Positions 4,671 through 63,121 of a stretch of 64,000 nt of DNA are shown one piece after another. The position numbers and the translations under genes are program-made. Origin of the DNA: Candidatus Limnocylindrales bacterium (GTDB taxonomy: Bacteria > Desulfobacterota > Binatia > UBA1149 > CAITLU01). The notes beneath the pieces were generated by a model. That model saw only the letters and a program-made list of their open reading frames with translations. It did not search any database and was not told the DNA's origin. Location: NCBI GenBank assembly GCA_035571835.1, contig DATNBU010000037.1:140753-204752 (forward strand), written 5' to 3'. Every line of letters starts with the position of its first letter. Position 1 is the stretch's first letter.

Positions 4671-6026
4671 TTATCCGGCGGTGATCGAGACGTCTTCGGC
4701 GCGGATCGCCGGCACGAGCGCAGAGCCGCTCATCTCCTGGCGCTCGCGCGAGATCGCCGAGATCTTCGTCAGGAGCTCGAAGACGTTTCCCGCGATCAGC
4801 ACTTCGCGCACCGGCCTGCGCTCGCCGCTTCCGACAAGGAACCCGTTCTTGACCACGCCGGAGAAATCGCCGGTCACTGGGTTGGTGCTTCCCGAATAGC
4901 GTCCGACCCAGATCGCGCGCTCGCCGGACGCGACGAGATCGGCCATCGCGGTCTGGCCGGCGTCGACTTCCAGGCGGTGATGCCCGACCATCGGAAGCGA
5001 GCCGACTCCGCCTGCGGCGTTGCCGGTGCTGCGTGCACCGTGGCCGGCGGCAACCGCTTCGTAATGGTTGAACAGGAAGCCTTCGAGCACGCCGGCCGAA
5101 ACAAGAGGGCGGCGAACGATCGGCATTCCTTCGCGGTCGAATGCGCTCGAGTTTGCGCCGCCGGGCAGGCGGCCGTCTTCCCAGATCGTCAGCATCTTTG
5201 CGGCAACGCTCTGGGAAATCTTCGAGGCAAGAGGGCTGCGGCCTTTGCGAACGCTGTCGGCGCACATCGCGCCGATCAACGTCGGCAGCAGGAACTCGGT
5301 GACCGCATCCGGCGACAGCACGATCGGGCCGCGGAAGCTTTCCCCTTTGCCGGCGCCGAGCCCGGCGACGCATTTTTCGACGAAGCGCCGGCACGCCTGC
5401 GTGATCTCGGCATTGAACCCGAGCCAGCGGCGGCTGGTTGCGCTGTCGTAGTCGAAGCTGGCGACATCGTCGCCGTCGACCGCCATGCCGAACGTGCTCG
5501 CGTCGAGCGTGCTGTCGGATTCGCTTGCAGAAATACCTGTTGTCGATGCCAGCGCACGCGCGGAAACCGATGAAGAGACCGAGCCGGAATCAACGCGCAC
5601 GCGCGGGTCGAGCTCGCGAATCCGCGCGAGCATGTCGGCGGCCATCGTGGTGACTTCGGTGCTGCCGAGCTTTTCGACGGCCGCGTCGTAGATGCCGTCG
5701 ACGCGCGTGATCGCAGCCGGCTCGGGCAGATCGAAGAACGGATCGGCCGGATTGACGCGTGCCTGCGCGACGGCTTCGGCCGCGCGCTCGGCCATCAGCG
5801 AGGGCTCGAGATCGTTGGCCGTGACGAAACCCTGCGACGATCCGACGATCACCCGCAGGCCGTAGAGCGTCTCTTCGCCGCTCTGCACCGTGTGGACGGC
5901 GCCGTTTTCGATGTGCGTCTCCGAGTTGCGGCCCCACGCGGCAGCAGCCTCGGCCTTGTCGGCGCCCGCCTTGCGCGCGAGCTCGAGCAGCCGGTGGCAG
6001 AGGTCGAGCAGATTCTGTTCGTTCAC
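4671..6026 (-). CDS. pmbA: PmbA/TldE metalloprotease family protein
   Basis: 451 aa with full-length similarity to the TldE/PmbA family; lies immediately downstream of tldD on the same strand. Confidence 0.85.
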   Translation of the reverse strand: MNEQNLLDLCHRLLELARKAGADKAEAAAAWGRNSETHIENGAVHTVQSGEETLYGLRVIVGSSQGFVTANDLEPSLMAERAAEAVAQARVNPADPFFDLPEPAAITRVDGIYDAAVEKLGSTEVTTMAADMLARIRELDPRVRVDSGSVSSSVSARALASTTGISASESDSTLDASTFGMAVDGDDVASFDYDSATSRRWLGFNAEITQACRRFVEKCVAGLGAGKGESFRGPIVLSPDAVTEFLLPTLIGAMCADSVRKGRSPLASKISQSVAAKMLTIWEDGRLPGGANSSAFDREGMPIVRRPLVSAGVLEGFLFNHYEAVAAGHGARSTGNAAGGVGSLPMVGHHRLEVDAGQTAMADLVASGERAIWVGRYSGSTNPVTGDFSGVVKNGFLVGSGERRPVREVLIAGNVFELLTKISAISRERQEMSGSALVPAIRAEDVSITAG

Positions 6027-7600: not shown

Positions 7601-7855
7601 GTGAGCGACGCGCCCGAGAAGAAGAAAGACGTCAAGGTCCATGTACTGCGATGCCGGTCCGACTCGTGCCGCGCGCTGCTGCCGTTCGAAGAAACCGACG
7701 AGGGTCTCCTGCTCGGAAACATGATCGAAATCGCAACCCGCGAAGGCGATGCGGCGTTCTTTCCTTGTCCGCGCTGCGGTGGCCGCAATCTGGTCGAAGA
7801 AGTCGTGCATGAGGGCAAGAAAAGAACCCGCGTGACGGGCTTCGTTGCATCGTGA
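7601..7855 (+). CDS. Small zinc-ribbon protein (CxxC...CPRC)
   Basis: GTG start; 84 aa with RCRSDSC and PCPRCGG Cys pairs. Its stop overlaps the GTG start of the next ORF (GTGA). Confidence 0.4.
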   Translation: MSDAPEKKKDVKVHVLRCRSDSCRALLPFEETDEGLLLGNMIEIATREGDAAFFPCPRCGGRNLVEEVVHEGKKRTRVTGFVAS

Positions 7856-8427
7856 CGCCTCGGGTGGCGGCTGACTTGCAGCCCGAAGTATTCCGCAAAG
7901 ATCGCTGGCTGCGAGCCAGCGCGTATCATCTTGCCTCGTGGAGCTTTGCTGCGCTCGTCCTCGACGTGCGGCTGCGCTCGGCGGGCGCAACGACGCAGGC
8001 GACCGGCATCGCGGCGTTAGTCGTGATCGTCGGCGCCAGTCTGCTCACGTCGATGACGACCGAGCGGCGAGTCGCAAAAATGTTCGGGCCCGCCGGAGCG
8101 CCGCTGTTCGCCGGAGCCGGCCGCATGTGGCTCGTGGTGTTTGCGACGCTTACGTCGGCCAGCATTGCCATCGCTTCGGCGGGCCGCGTGGAGGCCGTGA
8201 TGACGCTGTGGATGTTCGGCGTGGGAGCAGCGTTCCTGTTCTGGGGAAGAACGATCGGCTTCCGGTGGTATGCGGGCCTCGGCCTCGCGCTGATGGCTGC
8301 GGGCGCCGTCGATTCGTGGATGACCGCCGTCGGCGGACCGGTCGGGCTTCTGCGCCTCTTCGTGCTCGGTTTCGCGCTGCCCGCCGCAGCAATTCTCACC
8401 AATCGCCGCTACCTCTGGCTCCGCTGA
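7852..8427 (+). CDS. Integral membrane protein (multi-TM), hypothetical
   Basis: 191 aa with several hydrophobic helices (AALVVIVGASLLTSM, LVVFATLTSASIAIA, LLRLFVLGFALPAAAIL), translationally coupled to 7601..7855. Confidence 0.5.
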   Translation: MTPRVAADLQPEVFRKDRWLRASAYHLASWSFAALVLDVRLRSAGATTQATGIAALVVIVGASLLTSMTTERRVAKMFGPAGAPLFAGAGRMWLVVFATLTSASIAIASAGRVEAVMTLWMFGVGAAFLFWGRTIGFRWYAGLGLALMAAGAVDSWMTAVGGPVGLLRLFVLGFALPAAAILTNRRYLWLR

Positions 8428-8428
8428 A

Positions 8429-8540
8429 AAATCGGGGACAGACACCGATTACGCGAAATCGGGGACAGACACCGATTAACCGAAATCAGTGTCTGTCCCC
8501 GAATAGTGGAAATCAGTGTCTGTCCCCGATTAACCCCGAT
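8429..8540. repeat. Four copies of a ~25-bp palindromic unit AAATCGGGGACAGACACCGATTA (two direct, then two inverted), followed by GGGACAG hairpins through ~8634
   Basis: Direct reading: aaatcggggacagacaccgattacgcgaaatcggggacagacaccgattaaccgaaatcagtgtctgtccccgaatagtggaaatcagtgtctgtccccgattaa. Each unit has an AATCGG/CCGATT stem. The same unit recurs at 63030..63108. Confidence 0.8.
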
Positions 8541-8639
8541 TAAATAAAAACGGGACAGATCCGGTTTTGGTTTCCGGAGCTGTCCCGTTCTTTGTCGCGG
8601 GTCGGTGCGCGGTGAGTCCGGGGCTGTCCCGGGTTTCGA

Positions 8640-8825
8640 TCAGTGAAGTGTGCGGACGCGGCGGTTGTCGGAGACGACGATGTCCTGGTTGAGGACGCTG
8701 CGGCGGACCGGCACGGGCAGGTTGGTCTCCATGATCCACGTGCCCTGAAGGCGCTTGCCGGAGAAGACCAGCTTCTGGCTGTCCGCCTTGGTCGAAGTCT
8801 CGTTCTTGTTTCTTGAAAGGTTCAT
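8640..8825 (-). CDS. Small hypothetical protein (61 aa)
   Basis: ATG preceded by GAGGAG 7 nt upstream; followed by GGGACAG hairpins at 8549..8634 that may act as terminators. Confidence 0.35.
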   Translation of the reverse strand: MNLSRNKNETSTKADSQKLVFSGKRLQGTWIMETNLPVPVRRSVLNQDIVVSDNRRVRTLH

Positions 8826-9075
8826 GGCTCAGGTCTCCTCGGGTGGCTTGCGTTCAGTCACCGGGAGAGAAGCGATTTTCGTGCCTCTCGGGGGCCCTCC
8901 CCTAACTCATTGAATTCACAGTGATCGCTTCCGCAGCGATGAGGAAGGCCCGAACGCGCCCGAACTGACGTGTACAAACTCGTACGGGTGCCAATCGCGG
9001 CATTTTTCGACTCACGCGAGGGAGCGAAGCGCCAGCCCGGCGACCGCGGACGACCGCGCCCGGCCAGTCGGAACT

Positions 9076-13993: not shown

Positions 13994-14106
13994 AAGGGGA
14001 CAGGTACAATTAAAAAAACCGTTTAAAATCGCGGCGGCGTTGCGGCGCATAAAATGCGTGCGCGATTTTCCACGTGATTTTTAAATGTACCTGGTCCCTT
14101 TTTTCA
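13993..14106. repeat. AT-rich nested inverted-repeat element (MITE-like) in the convergent intergenic region; likely a bidirectional terminator
   Basis: Outer arms AAAGGGGACAGGTACA ... TGTACCTGGTCCCTTT; inner arms AAAATCGCG ... CGCGATTTT; T-run follows. Shares the GGGACAGGTAC motif with 61373..61406. Confidence 0.6.
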
Positions 14107-15612: not shown

Positions 15613-17151
15613 CTATGGTTCTGCTTCGACATCCGCCTCGTCCTCCTCCAACTTCTGTCGCAACTCATCTAACGCCGCAACCGCCAGCAGTTCTCGTACG
15701 GGGTAAGCGATGGGTAACATTGGGGTCCGCGGGTGGCTGGCCTCACCTGTCGGAAGCTCAACGCGATTCCCCTCCTCGTCCTTTCGGGACAAAACCACCC
15801 CGTCTGACCTCACCATGCTAAACAGGTCGCCATACCGACGAGGTGCAACGCCGAGGAAGGGTCCCAGCACCATGCGGGCCGCTTGAGCATCCACCGCTGA
15901 ATCCTCTCCCGCATGATGGATCGCATCTCCGTGGAGAGGTAGAGCCTCACTTTTCGGATATGGCTCGATATAGACGATTCGCTTCACTCCCGCCGCAACC
16001 GCGTGCCGAGCGCAGTTGTGACACGGGAAGGTGGTCGTGTAGAGGACCGCGTTTCGGACACTCACGCCAACACGCGCCGCCGACAAGAGTGCCTCCATCT
16101 CCGCATGAACGGTTCGTCCATACTCGGTGATGTCCCGTAGCTTTGATTCGGAAAGCACGCGTGTCGCTTTCTCGACATCATCCACCAAGCCCTGTTCCCT
16201 AAGGGCCTCGGCAGCCCTCGCCGCGATTACTCGGAGACGTGCGGTGTTCGAGTCGAACCCAATGGCGAGGTCTCGCATGTCGGGATTGTCCTCAGCGCTA
16301 TACAGCCCGCCGCCGGGACGTGGGACTTCATTGTGCCCAACGCCGATCAGGTCCCCGGTTTCAGCGATGAGAGCAGCTCCGATCTGTCGTGCGAGCGCGC
16401 CCGAACGAATCGATGCTCCGAACGCTGCGTGCATCCCAAATTCGTCGAGCGTGGGGGTGTGGAAAGGGTTGCCGAATACCAAGTCGAGAAAGCGATGGAG
16501 GGCCGCCTGTGTGGACTCGTAGCTGGAAACATCGATGAAGACATCTGAAAGATGGAATGTATCTCGGGTCTGTTGCCCGAACTTTTTGTCCTCCTCTTCG
16601 TCCTCATCACGTCTCAAAAGCTTCTCCGCCTGCTCTTCGGAGAGACCTTGCGAGACTTGGAGATGGCGCTTGCGCAAGTTGCGTGGGGCGAAAGCGCCGA
16701 TCAGATAGAACCCGGGTCCGTAGATTTGACGTAGGGTCCGGACTTCCTCCGGGCGTTTCAGCGAATCAAGAACGTGAACGTGCCGGGGCAGAGTCGGATC
16801 CGGGTCTTCGATGTCCTCCGTCGCCTGTGCGCGGCGCTCTGAGATGTTGAACACGGCTGACAGCACGAGCGCATTGCAGTAACCGGACCGTCGCCGGAGT
16901 TCGTTTCCGGCGGTCATATATGAGTTGACGCGATTGAAGTAGGGGTCGCCTTCGATCGGCACGCCGAGAATCTCGGCGAAATTCGGAAGGTCGTCGCTCA
17001 GTTTTACAGTGTTGACCTCGTACCGCCGAACGGCGAACAGGTCGCGTAGAACCGACGTGACGAAATCGCGGTTGCAGCCAATTGGTGCGACCAGTCCAAT
17101 GATGAGTTCGGAGTTGGCGGTCGCAAAGAGTGAAACCTCAGATGTCCCCAC
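15613..17151 (-). CDS. AvcD/DCD-like anti-phage deoxycytidylate (dCTP/dCMP) deaminase candidate: C-terminal CMP/dCMP-type zinc deaminase domain after a ~300-aa N-terminal domain
   Basis: HAEMEAL...PCHNCARHAVAAGVKRIVYIEPYP is the H[AC]E...PCxxC zinc-binding signature of dCMP/cytidine deaminases. The 512-aa architecture matches described defensive deaminases. Located in the tRNA island. Confidence 0.7.
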   Translation of the reverse strand: MGTSEVSLFATANSELIIGLVAPIGCNRDFVTSVLRDLFAVRRYEVNTVKLSDDLPNFAEILGVPIEGDPYFNRVNSYMTAGNELRRRSGYCNALVLSAVFNISERRAQATEDIEDPDPTLPRHVHVLDSLKRPEEVRTLRQIYGPGFYLIGAFAPRNLRKRHLQVSQGLSEEQAEKLLRRDEDEEEDKKFGQQTRDTFHLSDVFIDVSSYESTQAALHRFLDLVFGNPFHTPTLDEFGMHAAFGASIRSGALARQIGAALIAETGDLIGVGHNEVPRPGGGLYSAEDNPDMRDLAIGFDSNTARLRVIAARAAEALREQGLVDDVEKATRVLSESKLRDITEYGRTVHAEMEALLSAARVGVSVRNAVLYTTTFPCHNCARHAVAAGVKRIVYIEPYPKSEALPLHGDAIHHAGEDSAVDAQAARMVLGPFLGVAPRRYGDLFSMVRSDGVVLSRKDEEGNRVELPTGEASHPRTPMLPIAYPVRELLAVAALDELRQKLEEDEADVEAEP

Positions 17152-17615
17152 GCGCCTCAGACTATAGAGGTTTGACGGCTTCCTGGCAGCTGAGCTGTGC
17201 GTTTCTCACTGAAGTCGCCGTCCGGACCCTTGCAGCGACGATTTGGCTGGGCTGCTTCTCGTGAGGCGAACAGTAACTTGGCTCACTTCGGGAGGACTGC
17301 CCATGCCACGCTCTTCGACAGCGGAAGCGACACAGCAACAATTCCTTTCAGCAATGGGCGAAGAATGGGCAACGCGGGCAGTCACGACGGCGGAGAAGCC
17401 AGCGTCGCGGATGTGCGTGTCGCCTACGACCTGCTCGAACACATCTTGTCCGAAGTATACGAAGGCAAGGGAAAGTCGCTGAAGGTACTCGCGAAAAAGG
17501 TAAACAAGAAGAAGGGGCCGGTAACATAGATGCGCTTGCCTGCTCTCCATATGGCGATCTCGCTAGGCGTGCGTGATCTTAGTCGCTCAATGGAACCAAC
17601 CCACGGACGCCACCA

Positions 17616-18500
17616 ATGAAATACGACAGATTCAATCGGTTCGAAGGGACGAGCTGGGCATTTTGGCAGTTCAATGAGTACGAAACTCAGATCAACAGCG
17701 CGTACTGGTCTGGGGTCGCGGCAGTTTCTCGCGCCAGCTACGAGATTCGGCGTAGTGCACCGCCCGTCAATGCAAGGGTGGTAATGCATGCCACGGGAAC
17801 GGACGCGCAGCGAATCTCGGCTGAGGGTCCCGCTTTTGTTGCGAATCTCGGCGAATTTCTTAAGTGGAACAGAGCCAGCTTCATTTTGGCAGCAACCGGA
17901 GCCTTTGAAACGTACATCTGGCGAGTCGTGTTAACTGCGTTGATGTCGGATCCTGCCGCGTTGCATGGCAAGTCTCGAGCAATCGATGGAGCGACTTGGC
18001 TGAAGTTGGGACTTCGACCGGACTACAGTGACATCAAGAAGCGGGTTACGAAGGATACGTGGTTCCAGCGCTATGCGGCTGTTCGGAATATCTTTGGTGA
18101 AATTCCAGCGCTGAGTAGTCGTGTTCCAGAATTAGATCAGATCAGAATTTTTCGTAACAACGCTGGGCACGCATTTGGGAGGGATTTGACGGTAGAACCA
18201 AATCTCACGGCGCGAACGACGGAACGCATGCGAACTATTGACGACACAAAGTTTAAGGAGTGGCTAGGTGTAATCTCGAAATCCGCAAAGGCCATCGATT
18301 CAGTGCTTGTCAAGAACCATATCGGTGATTTCGAGCCTATGATTCACTTTCACAACTACTATGAATCTCTTGGTACTGTGAAGCCGGGGATTAGCAGCGC
18401 ATTTGCCTCACAGTACAAGTTGGCCTTGGCAAAAACCGAAGGTCACTCTAAGGGCAACGAATATGCCCTGACACTGATTCGCGCTTACCTGAACGCGTAG
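17616..18500 (+). CDS. Hypothetical protein with an HEPN-like Rx4H motif (Abi_2/AbiD/AbiF-like)
   Basis: 294 aa, low GC; ELDQIRIFRNNAGHAFGRDL fits the HEPN R-x4-H motif (Abi_2 consensus lRNxxAH). Confidence 0.45.
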   Translation: MKYDRFNRFEGTSWAFWQFNEYETQINSAYWSGVAAVSRASYEIRRSAPPVNARVVMHATGTDAQRISAEGPAFVANLGEFLKWNRASFILAATGAFETYIWRVVLTALMSDPAALHGKSRAIDGATWLKLGLRPDYSDIKKRVTKDTWFQRYAAVRNIFGEIPALSSRVPELDQIRIFRNNAGHAFGRDLTVEPNLTARTTERMRTIDDTKFKEWLGVISKSAKAIDSVLVKNHIGDFEPMIHFHNYYESLGTVKPGISSAFASQYKLALAKTEGHSKGNEYALTLIRAYLNA

Positions 18501-18520
18501 CGCGCGACGCTACAGTCGCA

Positions 18521-19303
18521 GTGCCAGCCGTTCTCCCCATGCCTAACTTCCTCAAGCGATTACTGCTGAGGCATGTTTTAAAGAAACCCTCTCCGGATGT
18601 CGTCCCACGAAGCGGTGAGGCGGCGCGACAAGTTGACTGTCGTGTCGCGTACATTCGCCGAACAGAGCCTGAGCCGGAGGTTCTTGTCCAATCCGCGGGA
18701 GCGTCGGAAGTTACGGGCCTTCGTCGAGAGGCGGGTCGATTTCAAGTACCCTTGTCTCTCAGCTACGAAGATTTTTCAGCTGGGGATGTCGAGATTATCC
18801 ACTGGTATGGATTGACGAGTTTTCGATACGATGGGCTGTGGCGTTACGTCCTCGAAGGATTGACCGGCTTCGATAGAGCAAGCTTTCTCTACGATCGCGC
18901 ACGGCAGTTGGGGTTCAATCGGAAGCCACTACTTCGGTACAGCCTAACTGAATTGCTAGATACCCTTGTGGAAGCCGCACAACTTCATCCAACCGAGGAA
19001 CACTCCTCCGTATCGTTGCTAGTTCGCCGTTACGGCGAACGATGCATAGAGCACCCAGACTGGGAAACCGTCCGCGGGAGCACACAATTGTTTCTCGATG
19101 CGCTTGTGAGTTCTGATTCTTTGGAGCGGACAGCCACTGGCTATCGAGTGAAGCCTAAAGCGGTTCTTGCCCTGGCGGAGTTTCAAGAAGCCGAGCGACG
19201 TCACCGTGAGAACTTCCGTACGGCTAGAGCGATGACTCGTCTCACGGTCGTGCTCGTTATCATCGGAATTGTTCAGGCATACGTGACTTGGATGAGTCCG
19301 TAG
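18521..19303 (+). CDS. Hypothetical membrane-anchored protein (single C-terminal TM helix)
   Basis: 260 aa beginning 20 nt after the previous gene; C-terminal RLTVVLVIIGIVQAYVTWMSP; no recognisable domain. Confidence 0.45.
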   Translation: MPAVLPMPNFLKRLLLRHVLKKPSPDVVPRSGEAARQVDCRVAYIRRTEPEPEVLVQSAGASEVTGLRREAGRFQVPLSLSYEDFSAGDVEIIHWYGLTSFRYDGLWRYVLEGLTGFDRASFLYDRARQLGFNRKPLLRYSLTELLDTLVEAAQLHPTEEHSSVSLLVRRYGERCIEHPDWETVRGSTQLFLDALVSSDSLERTATGYRVKPKAVLALAEFQEAERRHRENFRTARAMTRLTVVLVIIGIVQAYVTWMSP

Positions 19304-19375
19304 TCCTCGGTGGCCGCGAGTGCTCACAAGTTGAGATGGTGAGAAACTAGAACCTTCAGGGCGTGGGCAAGCGTT

Positions 19376-20764
19376 TCATCTTGGCGCATCGGCCAAGTAC
19401 TGATTCACGTCGGTGAACAGCGTCCGAATGGATTCCAGATGCTCCCGCCGAATGGCTTCGTTCTTCTCGTTAAGTAGCCCCTCCACTGCAGCCCGACCAG
19501 GTCTTTCAGTCTTCGTGCGGACATCGTTCGCAGGTTGGGCAAAGAATCTGTAGTCGGGAAACCGTCGCCGAAGCTCACCGACGAGTTCTGCTTTGTCGGC
19601 GTCGAGGATTCCTACAACCTTCGAATAGCCCAACTCCGCCAGGACAGCGGCGAGGTGTGCCATATTCCCCGCTCCTCCAACGCCCCAACCGAAGAAGTCA
19701 CCACCGAGTTGCAGATTGAGTTCCGTGAGCACGACGTCATAGAAGACCACATCCTCCTGTCCTTCGACGAGGACTACCCGATCGTCGACGAAGAAAATCT
19801 CTCTCGCGTTGAGTCCGAGCAAGTGAGGATTGTTTTTATCGCGAAGAAGTCCGTAGAGATGTCCGGCCGTTTCAACCGACAACTGGGAGACTCGCACTCC
19901 ATCCTCACGGAGGTGCGCACGCGCAATCGCCATGCCGCTTTCGAGTGCCCTGAGATCGATCAGGTAGGGCGAGTGCGTTGCGATGACGATCTGACGGCTC
20001 GCCGCGTACTCGAATATTATGTTTGCCAACCGCCGCTGAAGAGCCGGGTGGAGTGAGAGTTCCGGTTCATCGATTATGATGAGGTCGCCGTCTTTCGAAT
20101 CATAGAGCGCGTCTACGATGTAGAGGAGGCTCACCAACCCCTCACCTAACCCTTCGCTGCTATGTGTGCCGCGCGCGTCTTGAAACTTGAGAAAATAAGT
20201 CCCTTGGTCAGTCTGATCGATAGTCCAGTTAGGGAGGGGTGAAACGAGTTTGGAGAATAACTCGTCGAAACCTCCTCGGTCGCGATTAACGGCGAAGAGT
20301 CGGTGAGTCAGCTCATGGAGGTTGGTAGATCGAGAGGACGGAAGCCCCCCAGCGTGCTGCGCATAGTCAACTCTGCTCCACGTCGCTTTGCTGAAGTACG
20401 GGTCGAAGAACCGGCGAGACGGCAGAACGAGCAGTCTCCGAAGCGTTATGAGGTCGCCCGTGGTCTCTCGCTCAGTTTCGCTCTGCCCACGTCGGAGGCT
20501 TCGAAGCGTAGCTATACCACCATCGCACGAAGCGACGATTTCCACCCTATCTCCGGCAGGCAGGTTTCGACGGCCTTGCGAGAACGAAGGAGGTTCCGCC
20601 ATTCGGATCGCGCGGAAGGCCTCGATGATCGTCGTCTTGCCCGAGTTGTTTGCGCCAAGGACCACAGTCAGTCCGCTGCCGGGTGTTCCTGTGGGCTTGG
20701 CAAGGTTGAGCTGCTGGGCTGTCTGGAACCCCCGCAGCCCGTGAATGCGAATGTAGTCGAGCAT
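19376..20764 (-). CDS. OLD-family ATP-dependent endonuclease (AAA ATPase + TOPRIM), class-1 stand-alone
   Basis: Walker A GANNSGKTT; Walker B LIIIDEPELSLHP; C-terminal TOPRIM-like VVLVEGQEDVVFY...GILDADK. Confidence 0.8.
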   Translation of the reverse strand: MLDYIRIHGLRGFQTAQQLNLAKPTGTPGSGLTVVLGANNSGKTTIIEAFRAIRMAEPPSFSQGRRNLPAGDRVEIVASCDGGIATLRSLRRGQSETERETTGDLITLRRLLVLPSRRFFDPYFSKATWSRVDYAQHAGGLPSSRSTNLHELTHRLFAVNRDRGGFDELFSKLVSPLPNWTIDQTDQGTYFLKFQDARGTHSSEGLGEGLVSLLYIVDALYDSKDGDLIIIDEPELSLHPALQRRLANIIFEYAASRQIVIATHSPYLIDLRALESGMAIARAHLREDGVRVSQLSVETAGHLYGLLRDKNNPHLLGLNAREIFFVDDRVVLVEGQEDVVFYDVVLTELNLQLGGDFFGWGVGGAGNMAHLAAVLAELGYSKVVGILDADKAELVGELRRRFPDYRFFAQPANDVRTKTERPGRAAVEGLLNEKNEAIRREHLESIRTLFTDVNQYLADAPR

Positions 20765-36269: not shown

Positions 36270-39200
36270 ATGACGAAGCACCTTTTCGCGCTGGCCGCGC
36301 TGCTGGTCGCCGCGAGCGCCACCACGTCCGCCGCAAGTCATGTGATGCCGGTCGGGCATCTGTTCGCGGCAAGCGACTATCCAAACCGCTACTCCTGGGA
36401 CTTCTGCACCCTCGGCGACGGAACCGGACTGAAGATCACGACCGATTTTCTGCAGCCTGATCTCGCCGAGCTCCGGCTAGAGCATCGAAGCGCCGGCGGC
36501 GCGCTGATCTCTCCCGCGCTCGTCATCGCAAGCGGACCGATCGCGGAAAGCGAGCTCTACTGTGGCGACAGCGGCGAGGCGATCGTCAAGTATCGTTTCA
36601 GCAACGACTCGTGCACGCGTTACCGCATGGTTTCTTCCGACCACGTGCACGCCGGCGACGAACGCCAGGCCGCGCCGAACGGAACATGCGACGTCAGCCC
36701 TGTGTTCGCGTTCTGGAGCGACGGCTACACGATGGCGTGGGGCGCGTATCATCCCGATGCACACACCGACATCTGGGCACAGGGCTTCGATCGCGACGGA
36801 AGTGAGCGTTACGCCCCGGTCGTACTCAGCGGCGATCCCTCGCGCTGGCACAGCTGGCCGGTGCTCGCGACGGATACCGACGGGAACACGCTGGTTTCGT
36901 GGGCGGAAGGAAAAGACGAACACACCGACATGGTTGCGGCGGCGATCGGAAAGGACGGCGATCCGGGCGCACCTGTCACGTTCTTTGGCGGCGGCTTCGA
37001 CCTCGTCGGCAACGGGCCGACTCGTGCCGCCGCAACCAACATCGGTTCGTACATCGTGTACTGGCCGGCTTCGGCCGCAGAATCGCTGCTCGGCCAGCAC
37101 CTCGTGATCGAAGAGATTGCGCCGCAGCCGACCACCACGTCCACCACGACATCGACCACGCTCGAGAATGACGTCACGCCGATGTTCGGCGACGAGCGAG
37201 GCTGGGGCCATGGAGCCGCAGTGTGGGAAATCGGACCGCAGCTTGCCGGTGACGGGCACGGCGGCTGGATGGCGTCGTGGAGCGGCAGTTCCGAGAATGC
37301 GTGGCCGTTCCGGCCGCAGTTCCGCTACACATCCGTATCGCACGATTCCGGCCGCCGCTGGTCGCGTCCGGTGCCCGTAGGGAGCGATGTCGCGACGATC
37401 GTCAGCGACGGCGCTGGAGAATGGCTGTCGATTGCGGATGCGTACCACTACCAGGACGTCGAGCCGTATCATTCCCACGTGATTGAGATCGGACGTACGC
37501 AGGGCGGCGGATCGTCGTGGTCGGAGACGCGCGCTGTGGCGGACCTTCCTCGCGATCCCGACGAAGACTGCTCGAACTACATCAGTGCGCTGACGCTTGG
37601 CCGCAACCACAGCGACACGCTGCTCGCGGCGTGGACGCAATCCACCGAATGCGACGACTCGGATCGGAGCACGATCCGGTACGACGTGTATGCGATCCGA
37701 TCCACCGACAGCGGCCAGCTCTGGTCAGCGCCGAAGCTGCTCTATACGGACTATGACAACGTTTTCCGTCGGAACATGAGCTTGACCGCGACGGGACAGG
37801 ACGGATGGGTGCTCAACGTGGCGACGGGAACCGCAATCCGCACGAACGACGGAGGAGTGACATGGACCGAACCGGAAGAGTTCGGATTCCAGGACGCCGC
37901 CTGCGACGCGTCCGGCTACTGCGTGTCGGTGAGCGATGGCGGCGACGGTTCTCACGGATGGGATGCTGACATCTTCGCATCCGTCTCCGAGGACGAAGGC
38001 CGCACGTGGAAACCGCTCGCCGCCGTCAACGACGATGCGCTCATCGATCACTCCCCGGACTACTCGCCGCGGATTGCGACCGACGGCAACGGACGCTGGA
38101 CGGTGGTGTGGGTTTCGCACCGCAATCTCGCCGGCAAACTCGGGTTCGATGCGGATCTTCTCGAAGCCGCCTCGACCGACGGCGGCCGCACGTGGAGCGC
38201 TCCCCGAGCCGTCAGCGTCGCCGCACAGAACGACGGATGGACCTTCGATGACTATCCGGTGCTCGCCTACGGCGCCGGCGCATGGATCGCGCTTTGGCAA
38301 AGGCGAACCGTGACGGAAAACTACGAAGCGTTCCGCAGCGACGCGCGCGTCGCGGTAGCCGACGACAACTGCGGCAACGAAATCGTCGACGGCTTCGACG
38401 AATGCGACGACGGCAATACCGTCAACGGCGACGGCTGCGACAACAACTGTTACGTGACCGCCTGCGGCAACGGCATCGTCACCGAAGGCGAGGAGTGCGA
38501 CGACGGAAACCGGCTCGACGATGATGCGTGCGTTGCGGACTGCGTTTCCGCGAGTTGCGGCGACGGCTACGTCGACAGCGAAGTCGAAGAGTGCGACGAC
38601 GGCAACAGCGACGAGAACGATGCCTGTACATCGGCCTGCACCATTGCGCGCTGCGGCGACGGCTTCGTTGCGCGCGGTAGCGAGGAATGCGATGACGGCA
38701 ATACCAGCAGCGAGGACGACTGCCTCGTCACGTGCGAGGTGGCGCGCTGCGGTGATGGTTTCATTCTCGACGGCGTCGAGGAGTGCGACGACGCCAACAG
38801 CAATACCAGTGACGGATGCCCGGCGAACTGCAAGCAAGCACGCTGCGGTGACGGCTTCTTGTGGCTTGGCGTCGAGGCTTGCGACTCGGGTAGCTCCAGC
38901 GGCGCCTGTCCGGCCAACTGCGGCGTGGCCGGATGCGGCGATGCAAACTCCGACGGAGAGCGCACGGCAGGCGACTCGATGTCGATCCTGCTTCACGCGG
39001 TCGGAAGGCCGAACCCCTGTCCGATGGACCAATGCGACGTGGACGGTAACCTGTGGATCAGCTCGCGCGACGCGCTGATGACGCTCGGATTGTCGGTCGG
39101 GATCGCGTACCCGACGCGCTGTGATCTCGGTCCATGGCTTACCGTCCGCCTTCAGGATGCTCGCACGTTCGGAGCGTTGCAGATCCACGTGGACACTTCG

Positions 39201-39488
39201 GCGGCGCCGCTTTGGGTGTTGTCCCACGCGCCGAACAATTCTGCAGCTTGCGAGTCGTTGCTTACCGGCTCTCTCATCGCCGGCCATGTCGGCGACGGCC
39301 AGCTCGACCTCGGCATGATCGCATCCCAGGGATTCTCCGGACCCGTTGATATCGCGCGATGCCGCGTCGAGGTTACCGGCGATGTACGACCCAGCCAGTT
39401 CGCCGTCGAAATACCGGACGTGACCGACGCCGACGGCGCGCCGGTCTACCCGCCGCCGAAAGTGATGCTGAGAGTGATTGCGGAGTAA
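36270..39488 (+). CDS. Secreted BNR/Asp-box repeat protein with about eight C-terminal Myxococcus cysteine-rich DGxCD repeats and dockerin-like motifs
   Basis: Signal peptide; Asp-box motifs STDSGQLWS, TNDGGVTWT, SEDEGRTWK, STDGGRTWS; repeats CGNEIVDGFDECDDGN.../CGNGIVTEGEECDDGN.../CGDGYVDSEVEECDDGN...; CDVDGNLWISSRDALMTLGLSVG. Confidence 0.75.
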   Translation: MTKHLFALAALLVAASATTSAASHVMPVGHLFAASDYPNRYSWDFCTLGDGTGLKITTDFLQPDLAELRLEHRSAGGALISPALVIASGPIAESELYCGDSGEAIVKYRFSNDSCTRYRMVSSDHVHAGDERQAAPNGTCDVSPVFAFWSDGYTMAWGAYHPDAHTDIWAQGFDRDGSERYAPVVLSGDPSRWHSWPVLATDTDGNTLVSWAEGKDEHTDMVAAAIGKDGDPGAPVTFFGGGFDLVGNGPTRAAATNIGSYIVYWPASAAESLLGQHLVIEEIAPQPTTTSTTTSTTLENDVTPMFGDERGWGHGAAVWEIGPQLAGDGHGGWMASWSGSSENAWPFRPQFRYTSVSHDSGRRWSRPVPVGSDVATIVSDGAGEWLSIADAYHYQDVEPYHSHVIEIGRTQGGGSSWSETRAVADLPRDPDEDCSNYISALTLGRNHSDTLLAAWTQSTECDDSDRSTIRYDVYAIRSTDSGQLWSAPKLLYTDYDNVFRRNMSLTATGQDGWVLNVATGTAIRTNDGGVTWTEPEEFGFQDAACDASGYCVSVSDGGDGSHGWDADIFASVSEDEGRTWKPLAAVNDDALIDHSPDYSPRIATDGNGRWTVVWVSHRNLAGKLGFDADLLEAASTDGGRTWSAPRAVSVAAQNDGWTFDDYPVLAYGAGAWIALWQRRTVTENYEAFRSDARVAVADDNCGNEIVDGFDECDDGNTVNGDGCDNNCYVTACGNGIVTEGEECDDGNRLDDDACVADCVSASCGDGYVDSEVEECDDGNSDENDACTSACTIARCGDGFVARGSEECDDGNTSSEDDCLVTCEVARCGDGFILDGVEECDDANSNTSDGCPANCKQARCGDGFLWLGVEACDSGSSSGACPANCGVAGCGDANSDGERTAGDSMSILLHAVGRPNPCPMDQCDVDGNLWISSRDALMTLGLSVGIAYPTRCDLGPWLTVRLQDARTFGALQIHVDTSAAPLWVLSHAPNNSAACESLLTGSLIAGHVGDGQLDLGMIASQGFSGPVDIARCRVEVTGDVRPSQFAVEIPDVTDADGAPVYPPPKVMLRVIAE

Positions 39489-58222: not shown

Positions 58223-59240
58223 AAGGCTCTTCGCGGGTTTCCACGTCGTTCTCCGCAAGGACGCGACCGCCCACGGACATGCGCCTTTCGCGACAAGTGC
58301 GAACATTCCCCGGGGAATGTTCGTGCAGCCATGTACAGTCGCGATTCGCTGCGCCCGCCCGGAGTGATTTCAAGCGCGAGCAAGCTACGCCCTTAAGCGG
58401 ATGACCAAAGCGCGCACAAAGAGACCGCCCGCACCATTTTCGTGAATCGTGACTGACCGTCGCCCTATGCGCGGACTTCGTAGAAGGGTCCAGATGCAAG
58501 GCAGATTCCGGCGAAGAGAGGGAGTCGTACTTCCCGTACGTCGACCAAACGCAGCCGGAATCGAACGCAGCAGATGGGCCCTTATACGAAGTCCGCCCAG
58601 CGATCGTGGCACTGACATAGCCGGTCGGCGATTGAGCGAAACGGCCGCAAGAAACACAAACCCCGGCAGCGCTTCCATCTCGAGAGACGGCCCGCCGGTG
58701 AGAGCGGGACTGCCGGGGTTCGGTGGTGTTTGGGTCCCCTTGAGGGGCGACCCAGCGATGTGCTGGAGCGCGTTTCCTCCTAAGAGGACACCACCTCACA
58801 GGTCACCTTGAACGAATAGATCACTGGATCACCTCCTTTGTTTTCGGCGGGGGACAATGAGCGGTCCCGAGCACCGCTGCCTCAGAGGAAGACCGCCGGT
58901 GTCCCCCCTGGGCCCCGGCCACCGACCGAAGTCGGCGATGAGGCCTGTGTACGCCTCGGCCAGGCGATCGCTGAACAGGCGGTCAAATTACGCTCGCGCC
59001 TGACGGTTGTCGAGACACGGAAGTGCAAATCTGCTGGTGTTTTTCCGCAAAAGCGGGTGACCGTGCGGTACTGCTTCGACGCCTGTTCGAACTCTGAACG
59101 CGTCGCGTCGCAAGACACGGCGAGCGCCGCCAACAAACATTCTTGCATTCCCACTGCAACACCCATTAGGTTGCGATCGGGAATCGGGGAGAGAGGCGCA
59201 CGTTTCGCGTGCGCGGTTCCGAAGCCTCCAAGGAAAGCTT

Positions 59241-61358: not shown

Positions 61359-61415
61359 GCATTCGACAATCCGGGACAGGTACGAATTGTAGTTCGTACC
61401 TGTCCCATCTCGGGA

Positions 61416-63029: not shown

Positions 63030-63108
63030 AAATCGGGGACAGACACCGATTTCCCGAAACCCGGGACAGACACCGATTTCCCGAATTCGGGGTCTGACCC
63101 CGATTTCC
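63030..63108. repeat. Three direct copies of a ~27-bp unit A(A/T)(A/T)(T/C)CGGGGACAGACACCGATTTCCCG, the same unit as at 8429..8540
   Basis: aaatcggggacagacaccgatttcccgaaacccgggacagacaccgatttcccgaattcggggtctgaccccgatttcc. Confidence 0.8.
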
Positions 63109-63121
63109 TCAAAACCGCGAG

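What the first reader, a model, noticed from the sequence alone, without database searches (positions are those of the whole stretch)
8429..8634. Cluster of GGGACAG-core palindromic repeats (two direct + two inverted ~25-bp units, then two further hairpins)
AAATCGGGGACAGACACCGATTA occurs twice in direct orientation, and its reverse complement (AAATCAGTGTCTGTCCCCGA) occurs twice, all with 1-5 nt spacers. Each unit is itself a hairpin (AATCGG/CCGATT stem). It is followed by CGGGACAGATCCGG...CCGGAGCTGTCCCG and CCGGGGCTGTCCCGGG hairpins. This is not a CRISPR array: there are no spacers and the units are palindromic. The array lies in the convergent gap between a membrane protein gene and a small minus-strand ORF.
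Basis: seen in the sequence. Interest (0 to 1): 0.55.

Follow-up and report, generated by a model that had tools for sequence, protein, structure and literature searches.

The report
Dispersed REP-like palindromic repeat cluster
The repeat cluster is one copy of a short palindromic "selfish" DNA repeat family of the REP/REPIN kind. The family is scattered at gene ends across related genomes and is probably copied by a REP-associated tyrosine transposase, so this is a new family of a known kind of element.

Summary
Window 8429-8536 holds four 27-nt units, two forward and two imperfectly inverted, followed by two more GGGACAG hairpins.

- **Dispersal:** The 19-mer TCGGGGACAGACACYGATT recurs at 63030-63110 in the window. 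It also occurs at 67 or more loci on 25 large contigs (about 4.06 Mb) of one soil metagenome, and on 27 contigs of a Planctomycetaceae MAG.
- **Basic unit and placement:** The basic unit is an inverted doublet about 50 nt long. Arms multiply in 27-nt steps. Copies lie mostly just past gene 3' ends. They have no target-site duplication.
- **Copies inside genes:** Some copies sit in frame inside real genes (holB, mnmA, comEC).
- **Transposase link:** A RAYT-like Y1 transposase clade (best solved-structure match E. coli TnpA-REP) is flanked by GG(G)ACAGAC / GTCTGTCC(C) inverted repeats in all four genomes examined.
- **Insertion polymorphism:** The orthologous gap in close relatives is empty (58 nt) or holds other repeats.

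No RAYT lies in the window, so the link to a transposase in this organism is inferred. This is a new member of a known kind, of moderate interest. The more unusual points are the cross-phylum sharing of the arm and its stop-free coding capacity.

The parts
8429..8482 (+). Two forward arms (L1 8429-8455, L2 8456-8482) of the type A repeat, AAATCGGGGACAGACACCGATT plus a 4-nt spacer
   Evidence: The arms are identical to those found at 67 or more metagenome loci.
8483..8536 (+). Two inverted arms (R1 8483-8509, R2 8510-8536), AAATCAGTGTCTGTCCCCGA(A/T)T. L1 pairs with R2 and L2 with R1 in a nested long hairpin
   Evidence: inverted repeat I1, 48 nt, 83% complementary; folds.
8522..8541 (+). Terminal partial duplication, CCCCGATTAA x2. 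The same kind of short tail repeat is seen next to many family members
   Evidence: similar tails (for example L053, L048, L013, L029).
8551..8587 (.). Diverged doublet (type C): CGGGACAGATCCGG, 9-nt loop, CCGGAGCTGTCCCG. It is followed by TTTTTATTT on the minus strand, so it is the likely terminator of the 61-aa ORF, and by a weak TTCTTT on the plus strand
   Evidence: (I5). The terminator scan did not list it because its loop limit is 8 nt.
8618..8633 (+). Solo type C arm and small hairpin, CCGGGGCTGTCCCGGG
   Evidence: direct repeat D4, 93% identical to 8573-8587.
7852..8427 (+). Upstream gene: 191-aa predicted membrane protein with no Pfam family. Its TGA stop lies one base before the array
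8640..8825 (-). Convergent 61-aa ORF with no Pfam family; also called as a gene in the public assemblies
63030..63110 (+). Second type A locus: three 27-nt units in a forward, forward, inverted (>><) arrangement. The third unit is a mutated R arm, TCGGGGTCTGACCCCGA. It lies between the aldehyde dehydrogenase gene and a cNMP-binding/MMPL-type protein gene
61373..61406 (.). Type D doublet, GGGACAGGTACGAA-TTGTAG-TTCGTACCTGTCCC, 14 nt after the stop of the PQQ-repeat protein gene and just before a canonical terminator
   Evidence: relatives at L053, L072, L096 and L103.
13997..14011 (+). Solo type D arm, GGGACAGGTACAATT, just after a gene end

Best explanation
The cluster is a BIME-like pile-up of REP/REPIN-type elements.

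**What it is (shown).**
- The basic element is an inverted doublet of about 50 nt, (G/A)AAATC-GGGGACAGACACCGATTTC..GAAATCGGTGTCTGTCCCC-GATTT(C/T).
- It can fold as one long hairpin or as two small hairpins, each with an AAATCGG/CCGATTT stem.
- The window copy is a four-arm version (two forward, two inverted). It looks either like one doublet nested in the centre of another or like 27-nt arm duplications.
- Next to it sit a diverged doublet and a solo arm of the same GGGACAG superfamily.

**How it probably spreads (inferred).**
- The elements are non-autonomous.
- They are copied as single-stranded DNA hairpins by a REP-associated tyrosine (HUH/Y1) transposase that recognises the GGGACAGAC-containing hairpin.
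- They insert without a target-site duplication.
- They survive mainly where they do little harm: just past stop codons and, because the element has no stop codon in any frame, sometimes in frame inside genes.

**Likely side effects at this site (inferred).** The very stable hairpin starts one base after the stop of the membrane-protein gene. By analogy with E. coli REPs it could protect or attenuate that mRNA's 3' end. The type C hairpin probably terminates the convergent small ORF.
For: **Dispersal**
- The exact 19-mer occurs on 27 contigs of one Planctomycetaceae MAG, and also in Planctomycetota, Acidobacteriota and Desulfocapsa MAGs.
- It occurs in 107 or more metagenome stretches, 67 of them on 25 Ga0134124 contigs totalling about 4.06 Mb.

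**Architecture** (> forward arm, < inverted arm)
- Counts: >< 81; >>< 8; ><< 5; >><< 1, the same as the window; <> only 1.

**Gene context**
- Tandem 30, convergent 18, divergent 6.
- Many copies lie 0-20 nt from a stop codon.

**No target-site duplication**
- None was found at any boundary in 134 elements.

**Hairpin support**
- 93% of cells are paired and 10 of 25 pairs show double-sided changes; 0 of 500 shuffles match this.
- Fold z-scores run from -9.4 to -12.

**Transposase**
- The only Y1_Tnp ORF in 140 loci is L031:5284-5901.
- It is flanked by GGGGACAGACGCGAATT...AATTCGCCTCAGTCCCC repeats, which carry the same ACAGAC / CTCAGT asymmetry as that MAG's dispersed copies.
- Its best solved-structure match is 4ER8, TnpA-REP.
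- NCBIfam 'REP-associated tyrosine transposase' scores 65-73 bits, below the 80-bit cut-off.
- Three further homologues (58-76% identity) in other genomes are flanked by GG(G)ACAGAC on one side and GTCTGTCC(C) on the other.

**Insertion polymorphism**
- The orthologous gap is 58 nt with no GGGACAG in L151/L152.
- It is 109 nt in L147 and 152 nt in L149, both with unrelated repeats, against 212 nt in the window.
Against: - **No transposase in this organism's sequence.** No Y1/RAYT gene lies in the 64-kb window or in about 600 kb of type A loci. The transposase for the window's own subfamily is therefore unidentified.
- **Sister subfamilies only.** The RAYT-flanking repeats share the core and the asymmetry with the window arms, but they belong to sister subfamilies (GCGAATT or CTACGAATT in place of ACCGATT).
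- **Below the family cut-off.** The RAYT clade scores below NCBIfam's curated cut-off.
- **No classical tag.** The family lacks the GTAG/CGTC tags of the described REP superfamilies (PMC3733652).
- **Limited view of this genome.** Only 64 kb of the window organism was read, holding two type A loci plus three related hairpins.
- **Covariation has another explanation.** Among copies of a mobile family it can arise from shared descent rather than from selection for structure.
Confidence: 0.75

Rival explanations
1. The element is a host cis-acting element (transcription terminator, mRNA 3'-end stabiliser, or an array of protein-binding sites) whose copies are kept by selection for that function rather than spread by transposition.
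For: - Copies concentrate within 0-20 nt of gene 3' ends and are scarce between divergent genes.
- The hairpins are very stable.
- The type C hairpin is followed by a T-run on the minus strand.
- Each arm is a small inverted repeat, AATCGG-N9-CCGATT, of the kind a dimeric protein could bind.
Against: - The four-arm array has no T-run after it.
- Copies also lie in frame inside holB, mnmA, comEC and transporter genes, where a terminator would be harmful.
- Near-identical 19-25-nt arms at over 100 loci and across phyla fit copying better than convergent selection.
- The orthologous site is empty in a close relative that keeps both genes.
- A matching transposase clade carries the same core in its flanks.
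- This reading does not exclude secondary use of mobile copies.
Confidence: 0.12
2. The element is a miniature inverted-repeat transposable element (MITE) derived from a DDE-type insertion sequence, moved by cut-and-paste.
For: It is a short, non-coding, dispersed element with inverted ends.
Against: - No target-site duplication of 2-6 nt appears at any tested boundary in 134 copies.
- The element is palindromic along its whole length rather than only at its termini.
- Solo arms and arm multiples are common.
- The only transposase found next to related repeats is a Y1/HUH enzyme.
Confidence: 0.04
3. The feature is a purely local tandem or inverted duplication, or a degenerate CRISPR-like array, with no wider family.
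For: The regular 27-nt period within the locus.
Against: - The same arms occur at a second window locus and at more than 100 loci elsewhere.
- Spacers are only 4 nt, and the arms are inverted.
- There is no Rfam or CRISPR-like match.
Confidence: 0.01

Closest known systems
REP / BIME elements and REPINs with their RAYT transposases (E. coli, Pseudomonas; Bertels & Rainey 2011 PMC3116915; Di Nocera 2013 PMC3733652; Bertels 2017 PMC5581495)
   Same: - Short imperfect palindromes in many dispersed copies.
- The inverted doublet is the commonest unit.
- Copies cluster in mixed orientation.
- They favour tandem and convergent gaps close to stop codons.
- There is no target-site duplication.
- A Y1 transposase gene is flanked by inverted copies of related repeats.
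- Occasional copies lie in frame inside genes, as reported for Opitutus terrae, Thauera and Rickettsia conorii (PMC3733652).
   Different: - There is no GTAG or CGTC tag.
- The conserved core is GGGACAGAC.
- Each arm is itself a small hairpin, so arms multiply in 27-nt steps.
- The hosts are uncultured soil and peat bacteria (probably Binatia-like, Planctomycetaceae and others), not Gammaproteobacteria.
- The same 19-25-nt arm is shared across phyla.
- The associated transposases are about 195-235 aa and fall below the NCBIfam RAYT cut-off.
Rickettsia palindromic elements (RPE)
   Same: Family members insert in frame into genes that appear functional, and they are open in all frames.
   Different: - RPEs are 100-150 bp and have no known transposase.
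- The window's own copies are extragenic.
- The sequences are unrelated.
IS200/IS605 elements and their palindrome-associated derivatives
   Same: The Y1/HUH transposase family, hairpin ends, and no target-site duplication.
   Different: The dispersed units carry no transposase or TnpB gene, are only about 50 nt long, and the associated enzyme is closer to TnpA-REP than to IS200 TnpA.

Membership tests
REP / BIME | Short (about 20-40 nt) imperfect palindromic unit | tested here: met
   The arms are 23 nt with a 6-7 bp internal stem; doublets are about 50 nt.
REP / BIME | Many dispersed copies in one genome, mostly extragenic | tested here: inconclusive
   - Only 64 kb of the window organism was read: two type A loci plus three related hairpins.
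- The feature is met in the nearest available data: 67 or more loci on 25 Ga0134124 contigs, and 27 contigs of one MAG.
REP / BIME | Preference for tandem and convergent gaps near gene 3' ends | tested here: met
   Tandem 30, convergent 18, divergent 6 (using a crude gene caller). All five window sites lie just past gene ends.
REP / BIME | Clusters of units in both orientations | tested here: met
   Cluster forms (> forward, < inverted): >><<, >><, ><<, >>>><<.
GTAG / CGTC REP superfamilies (Di Nocera 2013) | Unpaired GTAG or CGTC tag at one end of the stem-loop | tested here: not met
   - The outer flank consensus is (G/A)AAATC on both sides.
- CGTC appears only in the loop of the Planctomycetaceae subtype, not in the window type.
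REPIN-RAYT system | The inverted doublet is the predominant unit | tested here: met
   81 of 126 clusters are >< (forward then inverted); only 1 is <>.
REPIN-RAYT system | A RAYT gene flanked by the same repeats in the same genome | tested here: inconclusive
   - Met for sister subfamilies in four other genomes.
- No Y1 gene lies in the window or in about 600 kb of type A loci.
- The rest of the window's genome could not be read.
REPIN-RAYT system | Single-copy, vertically inherited RAYT | not tested
   This needs complete genomes and phylogenies. L142 shows two adjacent paralogues.
MITE (DDE-derived) | Target-site duplication flanking the terminal inverted repeats | tested here: not met
   There is no excess of 2-6 nt direct repeats at any boundary offset in 134 elements.
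CRISPR array | Direct repeats separated by unique spacers of similar length | tested here: not met
   Spacers are 4 nt, half of the units are inverted, and there is no Rfam hit.
Intrinsic terminator | G+C-rich stem-loop followed by a T-run | tested here: inconclusive
   - The four-arm array has no T-run.
- The hairpin at 8551-8587 has TTTTTATTT after it on the minus strand, but the scan did not list it because its loop is 9 nt.
- No transcript data are available.

The most novel reading that the evidence does not exclude
The GGGACAG-core palindromes may be the non-autonomous partners of a large, uncharacterised RAYT clade: more than 7,700 homologues, with named ones in Planctomycetes and Hydrogenedentes. 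On this reading the clade has spread, with nearly the same 19-25-nt arm, across unrelated phyla (a Binatia-like lineage, Planctomycetaceae, Acidobacteriota, Desulfobacterota). That would imply horizontal movement of a REPIN-RAYT system, which current work treats as mostly vertically inherited. The element would also be built to be stop-free in all six frames, which lets it colonise essential genes in frame.
Probability: 0.3. Interest if true: 0.6.

Novelty: new member of a known kind. Interest (0 to 1): 0.4.

Why it matters
- **For annotation.** The finding explains an odd intergenic array, and several other GGGACAG hairpins in this window, as mobile palindromic repeats. They are not a regulatory locus, a small-RNA gene or a CRISPR remnant.
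- **For REP biology.**
  - It adds a well-populated REP/REPIN-type family, and a candidate transposase clade, from uncultured soil and peat bacteria. REP biology has so far been worked out mostly in Gammaproteobacteria.
  - Two features bear on open questions about how these elements persist and whether they move between lineages: near-identical arms shared across phyla, and stop-free in-frame copies inside genes such as holB, mnmA and comEC.
- **For metagenomics.** The repeats are practical markers for binning and for spotting assembly breaks in these metagenomes.

Tried and rejected
- **Rfam.** The gathering search of the whole window found only two tRNAs. The permissive search of 8300-8950 gave only sub-threshold microRNA-type hairpin matches. 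No known RNA family fits.
- **Viral contigs.** The 19-mer gave 0 hits, so the motif was not found in the viral collection.
- **Literature string search.** GGGGACAGACACC matched only an unrelated paper.
- **Genes lying between two nearby copies.** L037, L092 and L107 were checked for a transposase. They are ordinary genes: by eye an Ogt-like methyltransferase, a deoxyhypusine-synthase-like protein and a CBS-domain protein (not Pfam-tested).
- **Stop-codon creation.** I tested whether a T precedes GAAATC so that the element creates TGA stops. There is no T preference at that position, so closeness to stops is a matter of position only.
- **Tail duplications.** A simple test for one-sided 10-mer tail duplication in type A gave 7 of 81 on each side, so there is no asymmetry. 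The impression that tails are right-sided in the Planctomycetaceae subtype was not quantified.
- **Source contig.** Mapping through L001 puts the window's end past the end of the 202,909-nt contig, so the window probably comes from another assembly of the same organism. I did not walk the contig to look for a RAYT, because the chance of success per look-up was low.

Full report
**1. The observation**

Reading 8200-8900 and the repeat finder confirm four units in register at exactly 27-nt spacing.
- Two are forward, AAATCGGGGACAGACACCGATT (8429 and 8456).
- Two are inverted, AAATCAGTGTCTGTCCCCGA(A/T)T (8483 and 8510).
- The inverted units are imperfect reverse complements, with A where G is expected.

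Together they form 48-nt arms that are 83% complementary. After them come three features.
- A 10-nt tail duplication, CCCCGATTAA x2.
- A hairpin at 8551-8587 (CGGGACAGATCCGG / CCGGAGCTGTCCCG), followed by TTTTTATTT on the minus strand.
- A small hairpin at 8618-8633.

The motif is far above chance: 9 hits against 0.48 expected, and 0 of 100 shuffles reach that. GGGACAG itself occurs 23 times against 6.9 expected. The gap folds much better than shuffled sequence, with z = -9.4 as DNA and -9.6 and -12.0 as RNA.

The array starts one base after the TGA of a 191-aa membrane-protein ORF (7852-8427). It faces a 61-aa minus-strand ORF (8640-8825). Public assemblies also call both as genes. The array is identical in a second assembly and lies in a third that differs at 2 of 18,427 bases.

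**2. The motif in the rest of the window**

- A second locus at 63030-63110 has three 27-nt units in a forward, forward, inverted arrangement. It lies between an aldehyde dehydrogenase gene and a cNMP-binding/MMPL-type protein gene.
- A related doublet, GGGACAGGTACGAA..TTCGTACCTGTCCC, lies at 61373-61406, just after a PQQ-repeat protein gene and before a canonical terminator.
- A solo arm of that type lies at 13997-14011.
- All of these sites are just past gene 3' ends.
- No Rfam family matches.

**3. Dispersal elsewhere**

The 19-mer TCGGGGACAGACACYGATT was scanned in three collections.
- **Species-representative genomes.**
  - Of 31 loci, 27 lie on different contigs of one MAG, 'uncultured Planctomycetaceae binchicken_co3_550'.
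  - Others lie in Planctomycetota, Acidobacteriota and Desulfocapsa MAGs, with partner arms or extended matches. One single-arm hit in a Polaromonas MAG may be chance.
- **JGI metagenomes.**
  - Of these, 67 lie on 25 contigs of Ga0134124, which I summed to about 4.06 Mb.
- **Viral contigs.** None.

Two subtypes are visible.
- **Type A** (Ga0134124, and identical in kind to the window) is a nearly perfect palindrome: GAAATCGGGGACAGACACCGATTTC-CG-GAAATCGGTGTCTGTCCCCGATTTC.
- **Type B** (the Planctomycetaceae MAG and peat metagenomes) has arms GGGGACAGACACCGATT and AATCGGTCTCAGTCCCC around a 6-nt loop. This gives two conserved mismatches in the hairpin, A.A and C.C.

**4. Anatomy of the family**

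- **Cluster forms (> forward arm, < inverted arm).** Among 126 clusters: >< 81; solo arms 22; >>< 8; ><< 5; >><< 1, the window's form; >>>><< 1; <<<<<< 1; <> only 1.
  - The inverted doublet is therefore the base unit.
  - Extra arms are added in 27-nt steps.
- **Boundaries.** The conserved boundary is (G/A)AAATC outside GGGG on both sides. The palindrome usually runs 5-7 nt beyond GGGG.
- **No target-site duplication.** None appears at any tested boundary in 134 elements.
- **Hairpin support.** In 38 type B copies the long hairpin is 93% paired, and 10 of 25 pairs show double-sided changes (for example C-G 22 against U-A 15). No shuffle in 500 reaches these values. Shared descent of copies can inflate this measure.

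**5. Gene context**

With a crude GC3-based gene caller on about 600 kb of type A loci, clusters are tandem 30, convergent 18, divergent 6, apparently intragenic 17 and at a locus edge 16. Many lie 0-20 nt from a stop codon. This matches the pattern reported for REPs (PMC3733652).

Some copies really are inside genes and in frame.
- **Type B**
  - In holB, the DNA_pol3_delta2 domain spans the insert.
  - In mnmA, the HUP domain is split into two stretches.
  - An MFS transporter domain spans two inserts.
  - kdtA and flhF carry in-frame copies that lie outside the best Pfam domain match.
- **Type A**
  - In comEC, a six-arm, 54-residue insert splits the Competence domain.
  - An HTTM-domain protein also carries a copy.

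By direct reading, the consensus element has no stop codon in any of the six frames. In-frame REPs are already known in Opitutus terrae, Thauera and Rickettsia conorii (PMC3733652). The window's own copies are extragenic.

**6. Transposase link**

I searched all ORFs of 140 loci plus the window with two Y1 transposase sequences that I recalled from memory (IS200 TnpA and E. coli YafM).
- **A single hit.** It was L031:5284-5901 in the Planctomycetaceae MAG.
- **What the protein is.**
  - Pfam calls it Y1_Tnp, E = 8.5e-11.
  - Its best solved-structure match is 4ER8, TnpA-REP, E = 1e-4.
  - NCBIfam's 'REP-associated tyrosine transposase' matches four clade members at 65-73 bits, below the 80-bit cut-off.
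- **Its flanks.** The gene is flanked by GGGGACAGACGCGAATT...AATTCGCCTCAGTCCCC repeats. These keep the same ACAGAC / CTCAGT asymmetry as the MAG's dispersed copies.
- **Size of the clade.** It has more than 7,700 homologues. The named ones are from Planctomycetes and Hydrogenedentes.
- **Three further contexts.**
  - L141 (76% identity) has several GGGGACAGAC..TCTGTCCCC palindromes on both sides.
  - L143 has CAGGGACAGACTACGAATT shortly upstream and TCTGTCCCTGAATT directly after the gene.
  - L142 has AAAGGACAGACTACGAATT upstream and TCTGTCCCTTTATTT directly after the gene, followed by a short tail duplication.
- **Against chance.** By my estimate a 9-mer should appear in such flanks about 0.005 times per locus, so four of four is not chance.
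- **What was not found.** No Y1 gene lies in the window or in the sampled type A loci, even using a profile built from 120 clade members. The link for the window's own subfamily is inferred.

**7. Insertion polymorphism**

TldD homologues place the window organism near MAGs named Candidatus Binatia (83% and 69% identity) and one named 'Limnocylindrales' (84%). The phylum is therefore probable, not certain.

Three syntenic relatives keep the same gene order (TldD, an 84-aa ORF, the membrane protein, a 60-87-aa ORF, then enoyl-CoA hydratase). The gap that holds the array differs in each.

| Locus | TldD identity | Gap | Content |
|---|---|---|---|
| L151/L152 | 84% | 58 nt | One plain hairpin, no GGGACAG |
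| L147 | 90% | 109 nt | Other short repeats |
| L149 | 89% | 152 nt | A different array of AAGTCGG-ATSGG-CCGACTT units, roughly 23-26-nt period |
| Window | - | 212 nt | The GGGACAG array |

None of the relatives' 9.4-kb syntenic regions contains a REP-type GGGACAG arm. So the array is a lineage-specific gain at a site that repeatedly collects palindromic repeats.

**8. Interpretation**

- **Shown**
  - A dispersed, doublet-based palindromic family without target-site duplications and with a 3'-end bias.
  - Arm multiplication, and polymorphic occupancy of the orthologous site.
  - A RAYT-like clade whose flanks carry the family's core.
- **Inferred**
  - Copying occurs as single-stranded hairpins by such a transposase in the window organism.
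  - The origin of the four-arm form is a nested insertion or 27-nt slippage.
  - There may be an effect on the upstream mRNA, since E. coli REPs close to stop codons can affect mRNA stability and translation (from general knowledge, not tested here).
- **Rejected or unlikely**
  - The DDE-MITE, purely local duplication and CRISPR readings fail direct tests.
  - A purely host-functional terminator reading fits the 3' bias but not the in-frame copies, the empty orthologous site or the cross-genome identity.

**9. Novelty**

This is a new family of a known kind. Four points are less ordinary:
- the absence of the GTAG/CGTC tags;
- the arm-within-arm design that gives the 27-nt period;
- the stop-free coding capacity;

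Noticed in passing
window 58466-58601: A second dispersed repeat of about 135 nt with 30-nt terminal inverted repeats (58468-58497 and 58570-58599). It lies between the CoA-transferase and PQQ-protein genes. Six Ga0134124 loci (L073, L107, L109, L096, L065, L086) hold copies at 84-93% identity. It could be a MITE or a structured RNA. There is no Rfam hit at gathering threshold.
   Followed up: partly
L149 2808-2960 (orthologue of the window gap 8428-8639): A close relative fills the same gap with a different tandem array of small hairpins, AAGTCGG-ATSGG-CCGACTT, spaced roughly 23-26 nt apart. The stem resembles the window arm's AAATCGG/CCGATTT, but the loop lacks GGGACAG.
   Followed up: partly
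L008 146-1366, L029 6555-8000, L032 5431-6981, L042 3-2195, L033 1635-3017: Family members lie in frame inside holB, mnmA, kdtA, comEC (six arms, 54 residues) and an MFS transporter. They encode peptides such as ENRGQTPISQTKSVSVPDF or KSGTDTDF..KSVSVPDF. The element is stop-free in all six frames.
   Followed up: yes
L013, L029, L031, L007, L023, L025 right-hand flanks; window 8522-8541: Short tandem duplications of 7-14 nt of the element's terminal bases, for example AGTCCCCGATTTCC x3 and AATCGTC x3. They translate to SPRFSSPRFSS-type runs when inside genes. Their origin is unexplained; they could be slippage or footprints of truncated arms.
   Followed up: partly
L142 3001-3708 and 4459-5163: Two adjacent Y1_Tnp (RAYT-like) genes sit on one 455-kb contig. 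A GGGACAGACAC...GTGTCAGTCCCC palindrome lies nearby at 5952-6011.
   Followed up: no
window 16000-20000: G+C drops to 0.54-0.58 against about 0.63-0.66 elsewhere. This may be an acquired island; I did not examine it.
   Followed up: no
window 36270-39488 and 1-410: A 1072-aa protein carries myxo-type cysteine-rich acidic repeats (TIGR02232) with a 96-nt period. An inverted paralogous repeat block lies at the window's start.
   Followed up: no
window versus L001 (ERZ27256655 k141_2050732): Mapping through L001 puts the window's end about 1.8 kb past the end of that 202,909-nt contig. The window was therefore probably cut from another assembly of the same organism. L001 differs at 2 of 18,427 bases.
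   Followed up: partly
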